Of a stretch of 13,683 nt of DNA, positions 2,438 to 12,067 are shown piece by piece. The DNA is from Promethearchaeota archaeon (lineage in GTDB: Archaea > Asgardarchaeota > Lokiarchaeia > Sigyniarchaeales > SOKP01), in contig JAEOTZ010000064.1 of NCBI GenBank assembly GCA_016839585.1, positions 1 through 13,683 on the forward strand. The letters run 5' to 3'. Position 1 is the stretch's first letter, and each line of letters begins with the position of its first letter. Under the pieces are notes generated by a model that made no database searches, was not told the origin of the DNA, and saw nothing but the letters and a program-made list of their open reading frames with translations. The translations under genes were made by a program, and so were the position numbers.

Positions 2438-2536
2438 CTAAAATTCCTTAAGGAATTCTTCTTTCATTTTCTCATAGAAATCTAATGATTCTGGATTTCT
2501 TGAGGCACCTCGGTTAGCTACAGCCATTCCATGAAC
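2438..2536 (-). pseudogene. Orphan diverged copy of the acetoacetate-CoA ligase 3' end
   Basis: Minus-strand translation VHGMAVANRGASRNPESLDFYEKMKEEFLKEF* matches the C-terminus IHRMAVANRGALRNPESLDFYEKIREELK* encoded at 3356-3445. Similarity stops upstream of about 2536. Confidence 0.9.
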
Positions 2537-2682: not shown

Positions 2683-2907
2683 ATGGCAAACATAACCCTT
2701 TCAATCCCAGAAGATTTAAAAAAAGAAATGGAAGAATTCCCTGAAATTAATTGGTCAGAAGTTGCTCGAACATCTATTAAACAAAAAATAGCCCATCTTA
2801 AATTTTTAAAAGGATTTCGGATGGATAGTGAAATTACTCCTGAAGATGCCCTAGATCTAGGAAAAGAAGTAAGTAAATTGTTAGCTGACCGTTATATGAG
2901 GGAATAA
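2683..2907 (+). CDS. vapB: Ribbon-helix-helix/CopG-like antitoxin (VapB-type)
   Basis: MANITLSIPEDLKKEMEEFPEINWSEVAR is a typical archaeal RHH antitoxin N-terminus; ends 2 bp before a PIN-domain gene. Confidence 0.8.
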   Translation: MANITLSIPEDLKKEMEEFPEINWSEVARTSIKQKIAHLKFLKGFRMDSEITPEDALDLGKEVSKLLADRYMRE

Positions 2908-2909
2908 TA

Positions 2910-3353
2910 TTGAAATTAGTAATTGATGCTAATATTATATTTGCAGCCTTAATAAAGGAAGGCCTAACTGCTGAGTTAATTATCAATGATGAGCTTCAAT
3001 TATTTGCCCCCGAATTTTTATTAGAAGAAATCTCCAAATATCAAGACCAAATTTTTGAAAAAACACACAGATCAAAAGAAGAATTTGAGATTTTTGTACA
3101 AATACTAAATGAATATATTACTTTTATCCCTCAGAAAAATATTAAACCCTTCCTTGAAAAAGCAAATTTATTTTCACCTGATCCTAAAGATTCTGTTTAT
3201 TTAGCACTAGCATTAGCACTTAAATCGGCAGTTTGGTCAAATGATAAAAAGTTAAAAGAAGAACAAGTTCAAGTAAAAGTGCTATCCACAGAAGATCTAA
3301 TAAATAAAACTAAAATACTTAAAAAGAATAAGAAAAAAATAAAAAGAAATTGA
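2910..3353 (+). CDS. vapC: PIN-domain toxin (VapC-type RNase)
   Basis: LVIDANII, EEI, DPKDSVYLALA and WSNDKKL acidic PIN motifs; TTG start. Confidence 0.9.
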   Translation: MKLVIDANIIFAALIKEGLTAELIINDELQLFAPEFLLEEISKYQDQIFEKTHRSKEEFEIFVQILNEYITFIPQKNIKPFLEKANLFSPDPKDSVYLALALALKSAVWSNDKKLKEEQVQVKVLSTEDLINKTKILKKNKKKIKRN

Positions 3354-3355
3354 AT

Positions 3356-5374
3356 CTATTTTAATTCTTCTCTTATTTTTTCGTAGAAATCAAGCGACTC
3401 AGGATTTCTCAGTGCACCTCTATTAGCTACAGCCATTCTGTGAATAATCTTAGTAACTGCTATTTCAACCTTTTTGTTGCTGAAAGTATAGGGTATGCCA
3501 TCTGAAGGTGTTTGTAATATTAGTTTAGGAACATGTCTAGGTGAAGTTTTCTCTCTTAATGTTTTTTTAATTTTTTCTTTTAATTCATTAGTTAATTTAT
3601 ATCCCTCATTCAATAAAACAAACATTATTATTCTAATATCTCCCTGCCATTTCTGCCCAATAACTAGTGAATCAGCTATCTCGGGAAGTTGTTCAATTAC
3701 ATTATAGATTTCAGCTGTTCCTATTCGTACACCACTTGGTTTAAGAACAGCATCAGATCTACCCCAGAATGTAACTCCTCCAGTATCGCTGTGAATAACG
3801 ATATAATCACCATGCCTCCATACATTTTTGCCAATTTCCTTAAAATGATCAAAGTAAGCAGCTTTATATTTAGTCATATTGTCATCATCACCCCAGAAAT
3901 ATACAGGCATAGATGGTGATGGGGCTTCGCAGACCAGCTCAGCTTGTTCATCTTTTACTGGTTCTGCAATATCATTATAGGATTCAACTTTCATTGCGAG
4001 TGCTCTACCTTGTAATTCACCAGAATAAACAGGTAAGATAGGAATTGCACCTGCAAAACATCCATTGATATCAGTACCGCCACTTATTGAGTTAAAGTAT
4101 AAATCTTTTTTAATTTCACGATAAACATATTCAAATCCTTCAGGAGATAAAGTAGATGCAGTTTGTGAGATTTCTCTAAGTGAACTTAAATCGTATTTCT
4201 TGGCAGGCTTAAGATCAAGACCCATGAGATAATGAATATAAGCAGCGCTAGTTCCAAATATGGAAATTTTATGTTTTTCTATCAATTCAAAAAATCTAAG
4301 AGGATCAGGATAAAGGGGATTGCCATCATATAAAAAGATGGTTGCACCTACTGCTAATGCACTAATCAACCAATTCCACATTTTGGCTGGTATAAGGATA
4401 TCTTATACCATCATCCATGAGGGAGCAGTGATATAGTTCAGTACATCGCTCCTTTTAACATCAGTAGAAAGGATAAGCTCCTTTAGATGGTTTATAAGAA
4501 CTCCTCCAGCGCTCTGTACCATGCTTTTTGGCTTTCCTGTCGTTCCCGAGGAGAACATTACATATATAGGATGGTCGAATGGTAATTGCTCAAATTCAAG
4601 TGGAGGATTCTCATCCTTCGAGATAAAGTCCTCCCAATTGACGGCTTTAGGGATTCCTGATACATCACATTTTCCGTCTGAAATATAAGATACCACCACT
4701 ACTTTTTCTATGGAAGGGAGGGCATCAACGACCTCTTTTGCATTATCTCGAATATCAAATATTTTATCTCGATAAAAATATCCATCTACAGTAAAGAGCA
4801 CTTTTGGCTCAATTTGACCAAATCTATCAATTACTGCACTTGGTTGGAGCTCTGCTCCGCAAGATGCCCAAATTGCACCAATAGTCGCTCCCGCAAGCAT
4901 TGCTACGGGCGTCTCAATTAAGTTAGGAATATATGAAACAACTCTATCTCCAACTTTAACCCCTGCTTCCTTAAGAGATTTAGCTAAACGAGCTACGGTT
5001 TTATTTAATTCTGCATAAGTCATTGTTTTGGATACTTTAGTCTCACCTTGAAAGTCGAAAGCTAATTGATCGTCTTTATACTTCAGAAGGTTCTCCGCAA
5101 AATTGAGAAGACTTCCTTCAAACCATTTTGCCCCAGGAAAATGATTGAGATCATCAATAACTCTATAATATTTCTTGGAACAAATTATACCAGAAAACTC
5201 CCACATAGCTTCCCAAAAATCTGGGATCTCTTCAACTGACCATTTATATAACTCTTTCCCACCTTGAATATTTATTCCGTATTTATCATTAACAAAGTTA
5301 ATAAACCGTGTAATCTCTGTATTTTTTATCCATTCTTCTAAGGGTTCCCAGAGTTTTTTTCTATCATCGCTCAT
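3356..5374 (-). CDS. Acetoacetate-CoA ligase (acetoacetyl-CoA synthetase), two exons: complement(join(3356..4381,4412..5374)), 662 aa
   Basis: LNFAENLL, FSSGTTGKPK, SISGGTD, WRHGD and GRSDAVLKPSGVRIGTAEIY motifs. The two track ORFs are in the same frame, and removing 30 nt rebuilds the family motif SWMMWNW. Confidence 0.92.
4382..4411 (-). other. 30-nt BHB micro-intron in the acetoacetate-CoA ligase mRNA
   Basis: Sense strand: CCUCA UGGA UG^A UGGUAUAAG AUAUC CUUAUACCA GCCA AA^A UGUGG. Perfect 9-bp stem, 3 of 4 central-helix pairs, two 3-nt bulges; contains an in-frame UAA. Confidence 0.85.
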
Positions 5375-5637
5375 GATTTTAATAACACATCTATCATTTT
5401 TATTTGGATTAAATTGATTTGTTATTTTTTTTTTTTAATAATTCTATATAGAATCTGTCTTTTTTTAATTTTTTTTAAATTAAAACTGAATTAATCTAAA
5501 ATCCTTAGTTTTATTTCAAATTTAGAATAAAATCCAAAGATATATAATTAGGGTAAAATCTGCTAGATTTATAAGGTTGTGAAATTAATCTTTTTCTAGC
5601 AATCTTACTTATGAAAAAAAATTTACTAAAGCTTCTA

Positions 5638-7431
5638 TTATTTAAAATGCATTTTTTTTCTCTCTAAGCTATCTCTATAATTTTCAAGCATTTCTCGCAT
5701 TAAATCCATCCCTAGATAAATATTGTAACCAACACCACCCCATTCACTATCAGTACGCCAGATTTTGTATGTTATTTTAAAATACCTTCTAACTTGGTTT
5801 ATAAAATTAATGCTTCCTGATGTTATTACAGTTGAGCCCACTTTTCCATCACCATCATAGTACCCTAAAATAAAAGCTAAATATAATTCTCTTGAAGCTA
5901 ATTTTGGCAATTCTATAGATTTAGATTTTTTCTTTCCAACAATGAAACCATGTTTAATTAAATTTTTAGCAAACTCATCACTAACAAACCGAATTCTCAC
6001 ATAATCAGTTATTTCTCCATCTCTTCTAATTTCAGTTTCCTTATGCTCAAGATTAAAACCTATAGCTCTGGCAAATTTATCTAATAAATCTTTCTCATCA
6101 TCTTTATGCAATTCAACTCCAAATCTTAAATATTTGTCATGCTTGGAAAGCCAACCTTCTGCGAATAACCATCCTAACCAATAAGCTTTTTCTTTAGTAT
6201 CAATATATTCAAAATAGTCAATTTTTAAGTTTGGATGCCAGCTGTAGATACCATGAAGTGACTTTTTTAGATTATTAGAATTTTTATATTTATTCAATAG
6301 ATTAATGATTTCTCTTGGAACTCTAGCTAAATTTTTTTTGATATTAGATTCATATTCTTCAATTGTTTCTATTGAAATTAAATAATTTGAATTTTTCTTT
6401 ATTTGGTTCCTCTTTTTTCTAATATGAGAATTTGACTGTCCCAAAATGAGACTTAGTTGCTCATCTGTTAATTGACCTCGCCATAAATTAGTTTCTGAAA
6501 CATTTTTAGCAAGAACACCTTTTAAATCATTTAAAAAGCTTAATGTACTATATTCATTTGTGATTACCGTTAAAAACTCATTAGTTTTTAAAGCTTCTAT
6601 ATCAGATCTAGTAAATTTTTTGGTAAGGTTTTCCTTCCAGAATTCAAGATAAGCGGAGAACCTGTCAAAAGCGGATATCCTTTTATTAGATGAAAGTCCA
6701 AGTAAGCATTTACCTGTGTCTAAATTTAAAATCCTATCATAAAAATCTTTCACTTGGGATAATGGGATATTTTGTTTCTCTCCTATTTTTAATAATTCCA
6801 TTTCTACATTTGAAGAAAATTCGAGCCATTTAATTAACATATTCCTCAGTTCTGGAGAGAGATTTAAAATTTTTTGTTTATTAACAAACACCTCAGAATG
6901 CGCCCGGAGGTGCTTAAGTAGCCTTGTATATTGTAAAGTAATTTCATCAATACCTCTCTTTATCGCATTAAATACTTCTTCTTTTTTTCTCTCAATTTTT
7001 ATACTTAAATCATCCTTGAGAATCTTCAGCTGTTTCTTTGTAATTTGTTTTAAATACGATTTTGAAAGAGAATCCATGTAAGATGAAATGATAGAAGCAC
7101 CCCTTCCAATTGTAATACAATAGATCCAACTGTTAATAAACGTATTTAATTCTTGGGGGTATTTCTCCTTAATTTGGCTCAATAACACCTTAGGAGGGAG
7201 CCCCGCTTTATCAAATAAACATGCTAATGCACCATCAACAATTTCCCCTATTCGTTCATCAATATACACTAAGGGAAGGTGGTGTTGTTTGCATTTAGGG
7301 TATTTTCCAAACCCAAAAAATCCAAGTTTTAAAGGTTTTACTCTTTTCATCATATCACAACCTAATTGAGGACAAATAGCAATCATATCCTCATTTGTGG
7401 TTTTCCGAGATACTTTAGTATATTCTACCAT
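5638..7431 (-). CDS. Protein with an N-terminal Cys/His Zn-binding motif and a C-terminal two-motif LAGLIDADG homing-endonuclease-like domain
   Basis: AYWLGWLFAEG and AFILGYYDGDG motifs about 100 aa apart, followed by ITSGSINFINQV; N-terminal CPQLGC...CKQH. Confidence 0.8.
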   Translation of the reverse strand: MVEYTKVSRKTTNEDMIAICPQLGCDMMKRVKPLKLGFFGFGKYPKCKQHHLPLVYIDERIGEIVDGALACLFDKAGLPPKVLLSQIKEKYPQELNTFINSWIYCITIGRGASIISSYMDSLSKSYLKQITKKQLKILKDDLSIKIERKKEEVFNAIKRGIDEITLQYTRLLKHLRAHSEVFVNKQKILNLSPELRNMLIKWLEFSSNVEMELLKIGEKQNIPLSQVKDFYDRILNLDTGKCLLGLSSNKRISAFDRFSAYLEFWKENLTKKFTRSDIEALKTNEFLTVITNEYSTLSFLNDLKGVLAKNVSETNLWRGQLTDEQLSLILGQSNSHIRKKRNQIKKNSNYLISIETIEEYESNIKKNLARVPREIINLLNKYKNSNNLKKSLHGIYSWHPNLKIDYFEYIDTKEKAYWLGWLFAEGWLSKHDKYLRFGVELHKDDEKDLLDKFARAIGFNLEHKETEIRRDGEITDYVRIRFVSDEFAKNLIKHGFIVGKKKSKSIELPKLASRELYLAFILGYYDGDGKVGSTVITSGSINFINQVRRYFKITYKIWRTDSEWGGVGYNIYLGMDLMREMLENYRDSLERKKMHFK

Positions 7432-8078
7432 TCTTTTAATCCTTCCTCTAAGAATTTATCTTTTCTGATTTTGCATTTCCCGACATTTTCTTCTGAAATT
7501 AATAAGGTAAGTTCATCATCCAATTGAAGATAATTTACTCTCAGCTCCGTATAAAACTCTGAAGCCCAGTTATTAATACTTTTAAATACAATACACATTT
7601 CTTGAGTAATTCTTACAATGAATTTAAGCAGTTTATGGTGTAAGTGTATTTCTTGCTCTGATAATGCATGAATGGTTATAAAGAGTTTTTGTGATACATC
7701 TTTTAAAACTGCGAGGAGACTTTTATTAATTTTATCTTCCATGTGGATAACTCTCTCTAGCAATTTTTTAACTTCAGCTTCATATGAAACGCCACTTCCT
7801 CTAATTTTAAGGAGTAATTTTATAAATTTAGAAGCTAAAGTTTTAAACCTCTTTTTAGTCTCTTTATATTTTTTATCTTCTCCATCAAGACAGGTAATAT
7901 TTTTAGGGCGAAACCTATATTGTATCGTAGCAGTTTTATAATTCAGAAAAGTCCGTAGTTGTCGTGAAAGTTCCTTTACTTTACTTACGCCATATATTTC
8001 ATATAAGCTATATGGTATATCATCTGATTCATATTCCATATAAGGATTCTCTAAATCAAAGTTCATTTTTCTTTCCAA
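7425..8078 (-). CDS. Hypothetical, probably helical protein
   Basis: 217 aa ORF overlapping the LAGLIDADG gene start by 7 nt. Start uncertain (TTG 8078 or ATG 8066); no family recognised. Confidence 0.6.
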   Translation of the reverse strand: MERKMNFDLENPYMEYESDDIPYSLYEIYGVSKVKELSRQLRTFLNYKTATIQYRFRPKNITCLDGEDKKYKETKKRFKTLASKFIKLLLKIRGSGVSYEAEVKKLLERVIHMEDKINKSLLAVLKDVSQKLFITIHALSEQEIHLHHKLLKFIVRITQEMCIVFKSINNWASEFYTELRVNYLQLDDELTLLISEENVGKCKIRKDKFLEEGLKEW

Positions 8079-8360
8079 TATACTTTTTTTTTATTTCTTC
8101 ATAAATTCTTTATATTTAAATAAAAAAACTCATTGCAAATTTTTTAATAATTTAAAAACCATTTTAAAAAGATATCAATTCTAACTTTATGAATTTCAGG
8201 AAAAAAATTTTTAAAATTAAAGTAAAAAATTTTCTCTTTAAGAAAAGGCTACTTCATCATATTTTCTAGAAGAAATACTGATTCTTAGGATTGAATTTTA
8301 AAATTTAAATATATTCTAATAGTATAAGAAGATAAATACAATTCATTAAGAGTATAGATT

Positions 8361-8651
8361 ATGTATCAAGAAATAGTTCCTCTATTAAAATGTCCTAATT
8401 GCAATAAACCATTACATCTTGTAGATTCAGTATTAGAAGCCGGTGAAATAGTACAGGGAAATTTAAAATGTAGTTGAGAAGAGACTTGGGAGATAAGAGA
8501 AGGGATTTTAGATTTCAGCGTAGAAAAACAGGAAAGTGTGAACAGGTGGTGTGAATTAACTAAAGAGATCACATTTGAAGAATTAGATGAGATGATTTTG
8601 AGTAAAAGTGTATTTACGTCTAAACTCAACATATTCACAAATTTTTGCTAA
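8361..8651 (+). pseudogene. Truncated Trm112-like Zn-ribbon N-terminus (as seen in methyltransferase fusions) with an in-frame TGA
   Basis: MYQEIVPLLKCPNCNKPLHL...GEIVQGNLKCS*EETWEIREGILDF. TGA at 8475-8477; the frame then runs into the 3' end of the convergent ACD gene. Confidence 0.65.
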
Positions 8652-10085
8652 AGCATTAACTGGGCGATCCCATAATCTAAAGAGAATTACACCATTGTTC
8701 CTTAATCTTTTAGACCAAGGAGTGTTAAAATTCATAGGGCTTATATGTAATATTGGTACCGAATACTTTTCTGAATTTTTGACTGTTGGCTTAACTAATT
8801 TATCAGCTAAGGAATCAATAACTTCTTCAGGTTGATGCTGAAATTCAGCATGTTTAGCAATCTCTTCATATGATAAATAATCATCCATAACATCCTGAAA
8901 CCCAACAACCCCATATTGAATGATGGCATCGACTTCGCCTGATTTCATTAATAATTCAGGCAGAGTAATATAGAAATACGGAAGATCCATATCAAAAGTA
9001 CAATCTATAGGATTTTTAAAACTTGCTGTTTGAGGTAAAATTTTCTTTAACTCATCTTGAAGTCCTTCAGAAAGTTCTGGAACTACTAAACCATGCTTTT
9101 CAGCATTATTAGCAACCATTGCTCCTGGACCTCCAGAATTTGTTATGATCCCTAATCGATTACCTTTAGGCTGGATGCCCCTTGATAAAATTAACGCAAT
9201 ATCTAAAAATTCTTGAACATAATCTGTTCTGATAACCCCAGCTTCTTTAAATATTGCTTCAAACATCCTTGAATCACCTGCTAGTGCTCCGGTATGACTT
9301 TGTAAAGCTCGATTTCCTGCTTTAGAACCACCTACATATATCGCAATAATAGGTTTTTTGGGTGTAATTTCTCTTGCTAATTCTAAAAATCTTTTTCCTC
9401 GTTTTAGTTCTTCAACATAGAGTCCTATGATCTCTGTATATGGATCATCTTTATAATATTCTAAGCAATCAACGATATCAATATTAGCTTCATTCCCAAC
9501 TGATAAAGATCTACCCAATCCTAAATCTAAATTTATTGGATCATACCAAATATGGCATGAAAGTGTACCACTTTGCGAGCCAATTGAAAATTTACTCCTT
9601 TCAAGGTTTTCCCAAATAAAGATATTGAAGGATTTATTTTCTTTTTCTGGTCCATACCAGTTATTAAAAACACCTAAACAATTTGGTCCAATAAATCTAA
9701 TTCCATATTCTGTAGCAATCTCATTGATTTCTTCTGTTAAGGTATTTTTGCGATCTCCAACTAATTCACGAAAACCTCCAGAAATTAAAACTATCCTTTT
9801 GACTCCTTTTACTCCACACTCCTTAAAAATATGAGGGACTACTTTAGCGGGGAGGACGATGACTACGAGATCGGGAATCTCCGGAACGTTAGCAATAGAT
9901 TTATAAGCTTTAAATCCCATCACTGTCTGTAATTTTAAGTGTATAGGGTAGACCTTTCCATCATATCCTGACTTAATTAAATTCATAATTTGAAGGGCAG
10001 CTAAGGAATTACCTTTATTATTAGCTCCATAAATCGCAATGCTTTTAGGATTTAGAAATTCATGCAGGAAATGATGTTCACTCAT
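8583..10085 (-). CDS. ADP-forming acetate/acyl-CoA ligase alpha subunit (CoA-binding protein)
   Basis: NPKSIAIYGA, RFIGPNCLG, SQSG, SVGNEA, phospho-His motif SHTGALAG, ITNSGGPG and NPID motifs. Confidence 0.93.
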   Translation of the reverse strand: MSEHHFLHEFLNPKSIAIYGANNKGNSLAALQIMNLIKSGYDGKVYPIHLKLQTVMGFKAYKSIANVPEIPDLVVIVLPAKVVPHIFKECGVKGVKRIVLISGGFRELVGDRKNTLTEEINEIATEYGIRFIGPNCLGVFNNWYGPEKENKSFNIFIWENLERSKFSIGSQSGTLSCHIWYDPINLDLGLGRSLSVGNEANIDIVDCLEYYKDDPYTEIIGLYVEELKRGKRFLELAREITPKKPIIAIYVGGSKAGNRALQSHTGALAGDSRMFEAIFKEAGVIRTDYVQEFLDIALILSRGIQPKGNRLGIITNSGGPGAMVANNAEKHGLVVPELSEGLQDELKKILPQTASFKNPIDCTFDMDLPYFYITLPELLMKSGEVDAIIQYGVVGFQDVMDDYLSYEEIAKHAEFQHQPEEVIDSLADKLVKPTVKNSEKYSVPILHISPMNFNTPWSKRLRNNGVILFRLWDRPVNALAKICEYVEFRRKYTFTQNHLI

Positions 10086-10250
10086 ATATTTTCACTTATT
10101 TTTAAAAAGATTTCATCACTTTAAAATATAAATAAAACATTTCTGCGATGTTTATGTCTAAAATATTTGATGGATTAAGAATTTTAGATTGTTCTCAGTT
10201 TATCTCTGGATTTATTTCCTATGATATATAAGCTCCTGTCAAATTAAAAA

Positions 10251-10279
10251 GACTCAAATCTTGTTTCTACATTTGAGTC
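10251..10279. repeat. 9-bp inverted repeat in a divergent intergenic region
   Basis: GACTCAAAT-N11-ATTTGAGTC; function unknown. Confidence 0.45.
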
Positions 10280-10347
10280 AAATTTTTCTTTAAATATGTA
10301 GAAATTATTTTTCTTTTAGGTTTATAAAATTTCTGCTAAATAAAAAA

Positions 10348-10665
10348 TTGAAAAAGTATAAAATGTCAGTGAAAAAAGTTAAAGATATTCTTATGTATTA
10401 TTGCCAAGTCTGTGGATGGAGTATTTCGAAAAAATTACTAAATGAAATAACTGGGAAAAAAGAAGATATTAATTATTGTACTGAATGTGGAGCTGAGCTC
10501 ATTAAGGGGAATATCATTAGTGACAAAGAATTTGTTATAAAAAATAATATTGATTTAGAGAGAGACATAAATATCACATTAATTAAAAAAGATTTAGATT
10601 TACCATTTCATCGAAGTCACATTAAAGAGATTACAGATTATTTGAAGAAAAGATATTCAAGTTAA
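10348..10665 (+). CDS. Small zinc-ribbon protein
   Basis: CQVC...CTECG pairs. Start may instead be the ATG at 10363. Confidence 0.65.
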   Translation: MKKYKMSVKKVKDILMYYCQVCGWSISKKLLNEITGKKEDINYCTECGAELIKGNIISDKEFVIKNNIDLERDINITLIKKDLDLPFHRSHIKEITDYLKKRYSS

Positions 10666-10811
10666 TATGTAAATAAATTATAAAATTCGATATCTTTTAA
10701 TTTTCAATTTTATGATTTAATTATCATGATTTTTGTAATTTTTTTCTTAATTCAAAAAATTTTTTATTCGTAAAATACAAATTTAATATAAAAACAAAAA
10801 GAGGAAAATAT

Positions 10812-12067
10812 ATGACCAAAATATTTGAAGAAATCCGCATTCTTGATTGCTCACAGAATTAAAGCATATCGCTTTTTAATGAGTAAAATTCATAAGCGGA
10901 CCTTGGGCGGGTATATTTTTTGCAGATCAAGGGGCTGAAGTAATTAAGGTAGAAATTTGAATGCATATCGTATTCATACTATAACCTCCGCCATTTGGAG
11001 AAAGTTTTCGATACTTTATTTTATATGATAAAACCATGTTTCCCTTATTTTCTATATTAAATAGAGGAAAAAAGTCAATTTCTTTAGATTTAAGAAAAGA
11101 GGAAGCTCAAGAAGTTTTCAAGAAATTAGTGGAAAGATCAGATGTAGTAATAGAAAATTTTGTAAGAGGTACGATGGAAAAGTGGGGTATTGGGTATGAT
11201 GTATTAAAAAACATTAATTCAAAATTAATATATGCCAAAATTTCTGGATATGGTAATGAGGGTTTAGAAGAATACACCAACAAAACAGCTTTCGATATTA
11301 TTATTCAAGCAGAGGCAGGAATCTTAAATGCTCTAGGATTTAAAGAAGGACCTCCGAGACTTCCTATTGCAGATTATACAGCAGGTCATATCGCGGCTAT
11401 TGGGATTAGCCAAGCACTTTATTATAGAGAAAAAACAGGTATTGGGCAATTTATTGATATTTCTATGCATGATATCATGTTTGCTATCAATGTTAGAGCT
11501 CAAGCAAAAGAATTTATACCTTTAGCATCCAAAATTGATGTAGGAGGTAAATTTTTACCAGTTTATAATCAATACAAAACAAAAGATGGTAAAAAAATTG
11601 TATTTACAACTCTAACTGAAAACCAATGGATAAGACTATGCGAAAATGTATTGAAGAAACCAGATTTACTAAAAGATAATAGATTTGATAATATAATTAA
11701 GCGTTTTTCTTATGTAGATGAATTAGATAAGATTATAGAAGAATGGACAACAACTGTAACAAGAGAAGAAGCTATAAAACAACTTAATGAATTCAGAATT
11801 CCATGTGGAAAAACCCTAACCATTAATGAAGTTCATAATCATCCAAACCTAAGGGCAAGGGGGATGTTATGTGATCAATTTGATTTTACAAAATGGGGTG
11901 TTGAAAAAGCAACAATTCCCAACCGATTAATCAATTTCTCCGAAACAAAAGGTTCTGTTAATGTTCCAGGTCCGGAATTTGGTGTTCATAATGAAGAGAT
12001 TTATTGTGGTTTATTAGGGTATAAAAAAGAAGATTTAAAGAGATGGAAGCGTGAGAAAATAATATAA
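10812..12067 (+). CDS. Family III (CaiB/BaiF) CoA-transferase, three exons: join(10812..10854,10887..10954,10985..12067), 397 aa
   Basis: Spliced N-terminus MTKIFEEIRILDCSQFISGPWAGIFFADQGAEVIKVEPPPFGE matches the family pattern. NRGKKSISLDL, DVVIENF and catalytic PIADY follow; GAGG RBS at 10801. Confidence 0.92.
10855..10886 (+). other. 32-nt BHB micro-intron 1 of the CoA-transferase gene
   Basis: UGAUU GCUC AC^A GAAUUAAAGC AUAUC GCUUUUUAAU GAGU AA^A AUUCA. Central helix GCUC/GAGU; excision corrects the frameshift and removes the stop. Confidence 0.8.
10955..10984 (+). other. 30-nt BHB micro-intron 2 of the CoA-transferase gene
   Basis: AG GUAG AA^A UUUGAAUGC AUAUC GUAUUCAUA CUAU AA^C CU. 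Central helix GUAG/CUAU; contains in-frame UGA and UAA; excision gives KVE|PPP. Confidence 0.85.

What the first reader, a model, noticed from the sequence alone, without database searches (positions are those of the whole stretch)
4382..10984. A family of BHB micro-introns in protein-coding genes: a candidate mRNA-splicing system
Seen in sequence: three 30/32/30-nt insertions (4382-4411 -, 10855-10886 +, 10955-10984 +) in two unrelated metabolic genes share one architecture: A + 9-10 nt arm + ATATC + complementary arm + 4 nt pairing with the upstream exon + AA. Established: the archaeal tRNA-splicing endonuclease EndA cuts BHB motifs after the second nucleotide of each 3-nt bulge and RtcB ligates the exons; known substrates are mainly tRNA and rRNA, with crenarchaeal cbf5 as the classic mRNA case. 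Applying that cut rule restores the frame and the expected motif spacing at all three sites. The arm sequences differ while pairing is kept, and the 4-nt segment matches each local exon, which points to selection on structure. Every intron carries an in-frame stop, so full-length protein would require splicing. Inference: three introns in 13.7 kb suggest many more genome-wide, hidden as split genes or pseudogenes. This would be especially notable if the host is an Asgard archaeon.
Basis: partly seen in the sequence, partly recalled or inferred. Interest (0 to 1): 0.97.

Follow-up and report, generated by a model that had tools for sequence, protein, structure and literature searches.

The report
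Mobile tRNA-type mini-introns in Asgard genes
Two working metabolic genes of an Asgard (Loki-type) archaeon are broken by three 30-32-base inserts of the kind archaea cut out of tRNAs, so their mRNAs almost certainly must be spliced, and the inserts arrived sideways on imported gene starts, one of them beside a selfish DNA-cutting gene.

Summary
All three inserts are real, at the stated coordinates, and present in independent assemblies. The host is a Promethearchaeota (Lokiarchaeia) genome with a two-subunit EndA and RtcB. Same-genus orthologues carry or lack each insert exactly at the bulge-helix-bulge cut sites. All 41 orthologous copies break the frame, stems and the exon-intron helix covary, and intron-bearing genes stay under purifying selection (dN/dS 0.065-0.08, as intron-less ones). 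Splicing by EndA/RtcB is the best explanation (0.9); no RNA run was available. Corrections: the ATATC loop is not a family mark (6 of 41 copies), and the window is a hot spot (at least 15 such introns in 3.45 Mb). New here: both genes are mosaics with breakpoints at the introns. The acetoacetyl-CoA synthetase exon 1 and intron came in with a free-standing LAGLIDADG gene, whose close homologues sit only beside intron-bearing copies. The CoA-transferase keeps its old intron-less start as a scar upstream of an imported two-intron start. This resembles phage collaborative homing. The scan has noted both the introns and the homing link before on other Asgard DNA; papers I could search confirm archaeal mRNA splicing only for cbf5 and one Haloferax 5' UTR.

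The parts
4382..4411 (-). BHB intron in the acetoacetyl-CoA synthetase gene (30 nt, phase 0, stop at its third codon; central helix 3/4 bp, 9-bp stem)
   Evidence: present in 10 orthologous copies, absent at the exact site in about 30
4412..5374 (-). Synthetase exon 1 (321 codons); imported: 72-82% identical to the close intron-less relative L081
3356..4381 (-). Synthetase exon 2 (341 codons); native, 88-95% identical to L081 from the intron site to about codon 560
5638..7431 (-). Free-standing two-motif LAGLIDADG endonuclease gene (597 aa; N-terminal module shared with other nuclease fusions in the genome)
   Evidence: absent at this place in L081
7425..8078 (-). 217-aa partner ORF of the endonuclease cassette; homologues precede two other nuclease-module genes in the genome
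10154..10210 (+). Scar: original intron-less first 19 codons of the CoA-transferase, at the ancestral spacing from the divergent CoA-ligase gene (region 96% identical to intron-less relative L302)
10348..10665 (+). 105-aa zinc-ribbon ORF inside the imported block; weakly like the N-terminus of another LAGLIDADG fusion (E 2.6e-5): possible endonuclease-cassette remnant
10812..10854 (+). CoA-transferase III exon 1 (replacement start)
10855..10886 (+). BHB intron A (32 nt, phase 1, frameshifting and stop-bearing; central helix 4/4)
   Evidence: 9 orthologous copies of 32-35 nt
10887..10954 (+). CoA-transferase exon 2 (68 nt); exons 1-2 are 77% identical to close intron-less relatives
10955..10984 (+). 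BHB intron B (30 nt, phase 0, stop at its second codon; central helix 4/4)
   Evidence: 22 orthologous copies of 30-31 nt
10985..12067 (+). CoA-transferase exon 3; native, 91-97% identical to close intron-less relatives

Best explanation
The three inserts are ORF-less bulge-helix-bulge introns in mRNA. The pre-mRNA folds so that four exon bases pair with four intron bases between two 3-nt bulges; the host's two-subunit tRNA-splicing endonuclease cuts after the second base of each bulge and RtcB joins the exons, giving full-length 662-aa and 397-aa enzymes (structure, junctions, selection and enzymes shown; the cutting and joining inferred). The introns spread between lineages by DNA-level gene conversion. 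Here the synthetase exon 1 plus intron came in as one block with an upstream free-standing LAGLIDADG gene, and the CoA-transferase received a new promoter and a two-intron start (mosaic structure shown). Most likely the endonuclease cuts the intron-less site and the intron shields the carrier, as in phage collaborative homing (inferred; about 0.7 for the synthetase, about 0.4 for the CoA-transferase, where only a possible remnant is left).
For: Exact presence/absence at the predicted cuts in orthologues. 41/41 copies disrupt the frame, lengths vary mod 3 (32-35; 30-31) while the junction codon stays fixed. Covariation: synthetase stem 4 of 9 pairs with two-sided changes, 0/500 shuffles; intron B 17 two-sided cells, 0/500, including a synonymous exon change matched in the intron in two lineages. 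dN/dS 0.065-0.079 with introns vs 0.058-0.078 without; exons 1-2 of the CoA-transferase pN/pS 0.09. Two EndA paralogues of about 200 aa, one with the Tyr-His-Lys triad, and RtcB; Asgard EndA is reported as the broad-specificity two-subunit type (PMC5829648). Mosaicism: identity to L081 jumps from about 0.75 to 0.95 at the intron codon; max-chi breakpoints at codons 323 and 316, 0/300 permutations; scar of the old CoA-transferase start. The only three close LAGLIDADG homologues in 54 genus genomes (77-80%) all abut intron-bearing synthetase copies: 4/8 vs 0/27. Three further mRNA introns and one tRNA intron lie beside more distant homologues.
Against: No spliced transcript, excised intron or junction peptide was seen. 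The synthetase BHB has a mismatch in the central helix in 9 of 10 copies. Copies are related, so covariation and Fisher counts overstate independence (the endonuclease link rests on about 2-3 events). Half of the intron-bearing synthetase copies and nearly all CoA-transferase copies have no endonuclease nearby. Intron-less pairs also show recombination breakpoints elsewhere in the gene. Nuclease activity and target are untested.
Confidence: 0.9

Rival explanations
1. The inserts are skipped by the ribosome (bypassing, frameshifting or readthrough), or the synthetase is made as two separate halves because exon 2 begins with ATG.
For: At the synthetase site the insert can be slid so that take-off and landing codons are both ATG, with a stop and hairpin between, as in T4 gene 60 (own knowledge); exon 2 starts with ATG.
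Against: Intron A is phase 1: read unspliced its first codon would be Gln, His or Leu at an invariant Gln, while splicing gives Gln in all copies (the one His in that table is my typing slip for L007). Intron B has no matched landing codon and lengths vary mod 3. The exon-intron 4-bp helix covaries, which bypassing does not need. The synthetase break falls inside the AMP-binding domain.
Confidence: 0.04
2. The genes are dead or truncated, broken by small palindromic insertions.
For: Gene callers split them; databases list 312-364-aa truncated products. Each insert has a stop.
Against: dN/dS equals that of intron-less orthologues at saturated synonymous distance; the short exons 1-2 are as constrained as in intron-less genes; no second lesion in the full-length intron-bearing copies analysed.
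Confidence: 0.02
3. The inserts are removed at DNA level in part of the population, or by an enzyme other than EndA/RtcB.
For: Intron-less alleles exist in close relatives.
Against: Those alleles differ throughout exons 1-2, so they are other alleles, not excision products; no flanking repeats beyond 1-3 nt; geometry matches the EndA rule at all three sites and in tRNA introns of the same genome.
Confidence: 0.03
4. On origin only: the introns are ancestral to the genus, lost many times, and the endonuclease gene is a chance neighbour.
For: Intron B occurs across the whole tree, loops are saturated and stems show several compensatory changes, so the introns are old. Flank codons shared by intron-bearing alleles could reflect selection on an exon-exon helix.
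Against: In this genome both intron-bearing gene starts are demonstrably imported, with a scar of the older intron-less start; breakpoints fall at the intron; close endonuclease homologues occur only beside intron-bearing copies. Old age and lateral spread are compatible.
Confidence: 0.25

Closest known systems
cbf5 pre-mRNA intron of Desulfurococcales and Sulfolobales (Watanabe 2002; Yokobori 2009, PMC2738675)
   Same: Short ORF-less BHB intron in a conserved motif of a protein gene, cut between bulge residues 2 and 3 by a hetero-oligomeric EndA; patchy among relatives.
   Different: One gene in one crenarchaeal group, confirmed by cDNA. Here at least 15 introns in unrelated genes of one Asgard genome, two in one gene, with signs of lateral gain; not yet confirmed in RNA.
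Haloferax volcanii HVO_1309 5' UTR intron (Schwarz 2020, PMC7714728)
   Same: EndA substrate in an mRNA.
   Different: Outside the coding region; does not gate the reading frame.
Non-canonical tRNA introns of Asgard archaea (bioRxiv 10.64898/2026.10.13.758758) and Thermoproteales
   Same: Same size class, BHB geometry and enzymes; many independent gains; about 13 seen in this genome's tRNAs.
   Different: Host is tRNA; that paper found no general route of arrival and does not treat mRNA.
Collaborative / trans homing in phages (reviewed in PMC2988022; mobE with nrdB intron, PMC2790892)
   Same: Free-standing homing endonuclease beside an ORF-less intron, with co-conversion of flanking exon.
   Different: Phage group I introns with HNH or related nucleases; here a cellular archaeon, a host-spliced 30-nt BHB intron and a LAGLIDADG fusion; cleavage untested.

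Membership tests
Archaeal BHB intron in mRNA (cbf5 type) | 4-bp exon-intron helix between two 3-nt bulges | tested here: met
   4/4 pairs at A and B, 3/4 at the synthetase site; at least 3/4 in all 41 copies; covariation
Archaeal BHB intron in mRNA (cbf5 type) | Cuts after the second bulge base regenerate the uninterrupted gene | tested here: met
   Junctions equal intron-less orthologues
Archaeal BHB intron in mRNA (cbf5 type) | Host encodes a broad-specificity EndA and RtcB | tested here: met
   Two EndA paralogues, triad in one; RtcB. The L1 loop itself was not aligned.
Archaeal BHB intron in mRNA (cbf5 type) | Host gene is functional | tested here: met
   dN/dS 0.065-0.079
Archaeal BHB intron in mRNA (cbf5 type) | Spliced mRNA observed; EndA cleaves in vitro | not testable with these tools
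   No RNA holder listed
   6 of 41 copies; no excess over control loops. A 5-nt loop ending in TC is seen in 31 of 41.
Collaborative homing | Free-standing endonuclease gene with intact motifs next to an ORF-less intron | tested here: met
   5638-7431, both LAGLIDADG motifs with acidic residues, about 1.2 kb from the intron
Collaborative homing | Endonuclease and intron co-occur across genomes | tested here: met
   4/8 intron-bearing vs 0/27 intron-less copies; about 2-3 independent events
Collaborative homing | Conversion tract runs from the intron site towards the endonuclease gene | tested here: met
   Own genome: exon 1 side replaced, gene upstream; G064/G024: exon 2 side shared, gene downstream
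Collaborative homing | Enzyme cuts the intron-less allele and spares the intron-bearing one | not testable with these tools
   Needs an in vitro assay
Group I / group II self-splicing introns | Ribozyme core | tested here: not met
   30-32 nt; no Rfam match in the window
Translational bypassing elements | Matched take-off and landing codons | tested here: not met
   Possible only at the synthetase site; fails at A and B

The most novel reading that the evidence does not exclude
Lokiarchaeia routinely splice tens of mRNAs with the tRNA-splicing enzymes, and these micro-introns are spread as shields of free-standing homing endonuclease cassettes that import a new promoter and first exon: an intron-invasion route in the archaeal sisters of eukaryotes that needs neither a ribozyme nor a spliceosome.
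Probability: 0.6. Interest if true: 0.93.

Novelty: new variant of a known kind. Interest (0 to 1): 0.85.

Why it matters
In the papers I could search, archaeal mRNA splicing is confirmed for cbf5 and one 5' UTR. Here one Asgard genome has at least 15 candidate coding-region introns, in central and eukaryote-like genes (two Ras-family GTPases, ubiquitin E2, DnaG, PFK, RNase HII, uS3, thioredoxin). Such genes are now annotated as truncated or split, which affects Asgard gene inventories. This window also preserves how two intron-bearing gene starts arrived, which bears on the open question of how archaeal introns are gained (named as the central open problem in the 2026 Asgard tRNA preprint) and gives a defined enzyme-target pair to test. 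It offers a prokaryotic parallel to IRE1/RtcB-type mRNA splicing (own knowledge; analogy only).

Tried and rejected
RNA evidence: no RNA holder listed; two exact searches for spliced junctions in JGI metagenome contigs found nothing; two full-length close homologues from Logan proved to be DNA-like contigs of intron-less alleles. None of this bears on expression. No copy of the synthetase intron in viral contigs. ATATC-anchored genome scan: no enrichment. Motif-only BHB scan: as many hits as its mirror-image control, so structure alone cannot census these introns; homology was needed. One scan timed out. Origin from tRNA introns: CoA-transferase intron A resembles the tRNA-Ala(TGC) intron of this genome (best score 14, 5/200 structure-preserving shuffles): borderline after many comparisons, left open. 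My automatic tRNA-intron parsing was imperfect; only clean cases were used. PDB search with the endonuclease gave only weak I-CreI-type matches. No structure prediction was needed.

Full report
Observation. The three inserts are present as described. Removing 4382-4411 joins two ORFs into a 662-aa acetoacetyl-CoA-synthetase-type protein; the break lies inside the AMP-binding domain (profile 8-207 in exon 1, 222-304 in exon 2). Removing 10855-10886 and 10955-10984 gives a 397-aa CoA-transferase III whose first 37 residues match the start of the Pfam model. Each insert has an in-frame stop. The central helices are 3/4, 4/4 and 4/4 bp; the inner stems are 9, about 5 and 7 bp. Logan contigs from the source run (0 differences) and from two other studies span the inserts, so they are not assembly errors.

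Host. The window is contig C53 of a 3.45-Mb, 99%-complete genome. The nearest CoA-transferases are from Promethearchaeota / Lokiarchaeia MAGs. The genome has two EndA paralogues of about 200 aa, one with the Tyr-His-Lys triad, and RtcB, fitting the two-subunit, broad-specificity EndA reported for Asgard (PMC5829648). Many of its tRNAs carry non-canonical BHB introns of the same size.

Orthologues. Each insert is present or absent at exactly the predicted cut: synthetase intron in 10 copies, intron A in 9, intron B in 22, with A and B varying independently. All 41 copies disrupt the frame; lengths vary (32-35 nt for A, 30-31 for B) while the junction codon is fixed, and all 19 copies whose length is a multiple of three contain a stop. 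The synthetase stem has two-sided changes at 4 of 9 pairs (0/500 shuffles). For intron B 93% of cells pair, with 17 two-sided changes, including a synonymous exon change answered in the intron in two lineages; the tool warns that relatedness inflates such counts, but slid controls are far lower. Intron-less genes use varied codons at the helix, intron-bearing ones do not. dN/dS is 0.079 vs 0.078 (CoA-transferase) and 0.065 vs 0.058 (synthetase) with and without introns, and the two short first exons remain constrained (pN/pS 0.09), which excludes both dead genes and use of the internal ATG at 11036.

ATATC is one form of a loose 5-nt loop that often ends in TC (31 of 41 copies); the exact word occurs in 6 of 41, three of them here, and is not enriched genome-wide. 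Introns A and B resemble each other more than shuffles do; the synthetase intron does not. A motif-free comparison with 76% of a congeneric genome (1.19 Mb aligned) found 10 BHB inserts specific to this genome and a validated scan two more: two Ras-family GTPases, PFK, DnaG, an Fe-S/CCG protein, thioredoxin, ubiquitin E2, an unknown protein and uS3 (by motif). Three more named in earlier notes (RNase HII, a second PFK intron, a small zinc protein) I confirmed only by reading the sequence. That makes at least 15, perhaps 20-30 in all; the comparison genome has 3-4 of its own. Three in one window is a hot spot.

How they arrived. Following a lead from earlier notes, I tested the LAGLIDADG gene at 5638-7431. 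Against the close intron-less relative L081, the synthetase is 72-82% identical in exon 1 and 88-95% from the intron codon onward, and L081 has neither the endonuclease nor its 217-aa partner between synthetase and ligase. So intron, exon 1, promoter and endonuclease cassette form one imported block ending at the intron. In 54 genus genomes the only close homologues of this endonuclease (77-80%) are three copies, each directly downstream of an intron-bearing synthetase; two of those genes share 93% of synonymous sites after the intron and 44% before it (break at codon 316). The tract thus points towards the endonuclease whichever side it lies on. More distant homologues had three further mRNA introns and a tRNA intron in about 29 kb of aligned flank, against 0.1-0.3 expected (P about 0.003; 0.06 if the background is three times higher). 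In this genome two other introns lie within about 1.2 kb of a LAGLIDADG or GIY-YIG gene of the same modular family, and a third beside a relative of it. For the CoA-transferase, the original intron-less first 19 codons survive at 10154-10210, 96% identical to close intron-less relatives, followed by a foreign block (zinc-ribbon ORF, new promoter, exons 1-2 at 77% identity, both introns) that rejoins the native gene (91-97%) about intron B. The mosaic structure is shown; that an endonuclease drove it is inferred, well supported for the synthetase and weakly for the CoA-transferase. The introns are also old (saturated loops, several compensatory changes), and loss surely occurs too.

Mechanism. 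Shown: structure, exact junctions, selection on exons and on pairing, enzymes present, imported gene starts. Inferred: EndA cleavage and RtcB ligation of the mRNA (0.9); endonuclease cutting of the intron-less site with the intron as shield (about 0.7 for the synthetase). Ribosomal bypassing is formally possible at the synthetase site only and fails at A and B.

Known and new. Searches of open literature found confirmed archaeal mRNA splicing only for cbf5 (PMC2738675, which notes that introns in other protein genes had been predicted) and the Haloferax HVO_1309 5' UTR (PMC7714728); the 2026 Asgard tRNA-intron preprint does not treat mRNA. Subscription papers are not covered. The elements work like, and on all testable features belong to, the cbf5-type BHB introns; their number, spread over unrelated genes and link to free-standing endonucleases (like phage collaborative homing, PMC2988022) make a new variant. 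This scan has noted the same phenomenon in at least 68 genomes, these same genes in relatives, and the homing link in at least 16; those notes were used as leads only.

Verdict. Real, most likely spliced, with an unusually clear record of lateral gain; unconfirmed at RNA level. Interest 0.85.

Noticed in passing
window 2453-2536 (-) and 2683-3353 (+): A displaced copy of the synthetase's last 28 codons lies beyond an antitoxin-like and PIN-domain gene pair; the gene's present tail (after about codon 560) is only 72% identical to the close relative: an insertion that replaced the gene end. Similar displaced tails in L041, L051, L053, L086, L107.
   Followed up: partly
window 5638-8078; G000 C33 5814-7869 and 21498-25067, C63 23292-26588 and 45810-48402, C75, C78, C5 68685-71661: A modular family: shared N-terminal zinc/helical modules fused to swappable C-terminal domains (LAGLIDADG, GIY-YIG, unknown), some preceded by a 206-235-aa partner gene.
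   Followed up: partly
G000 C72 tRNA-Ala(TGC) intron vs L022, L092, L009 intron A: 13-14-nt identity between a tRNA intron and CoA-transferase intron A of relatives; borderline against shuffles (5/200); would suggest tRNA-to-mRNA intron copying.
   Followed up: partly
all 41 orthologous copies: All 19 copies whose length is a multiple of three keep an in-frame stop; may reflect selection against read-through of unspliced mRNA, but only three independent sites.
   Followed up: no
L284, L293, L295, L297: BHB inserts in an aldolase-like gene, a 2-oxoacid oxidoreductase gamma subunit, PFK and the T-loop of tRNA-Sec, each beside a LAGLIDADG homologue; L283, L284 and L288 also show displaced gene ends.
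   Followed up: partly
G006 (L061-L267) positions 1129378, 1505071 and one minus-strand gene: Introns specific to the comparison genome in uL11-like and undecaprenyl-diphosphate-synthase-like genes (by motif) and a 241-aa unknown.
   Followed up: no
L020 and L022 CoA-transferase: Intron-bearing copies with a further frameshift (L022, 1 nt) or local misalignment (L020); assembly error or decay not resolved; left out of dN/dS.
   Followed up: no
G006 (two loci) and G000 C86: G006 has two tRNA-Sec genes, each with a D-arm intron; the G000 tRNA-Sec appears to have both a D-arm and a T-loop intron.
   Followed up: no
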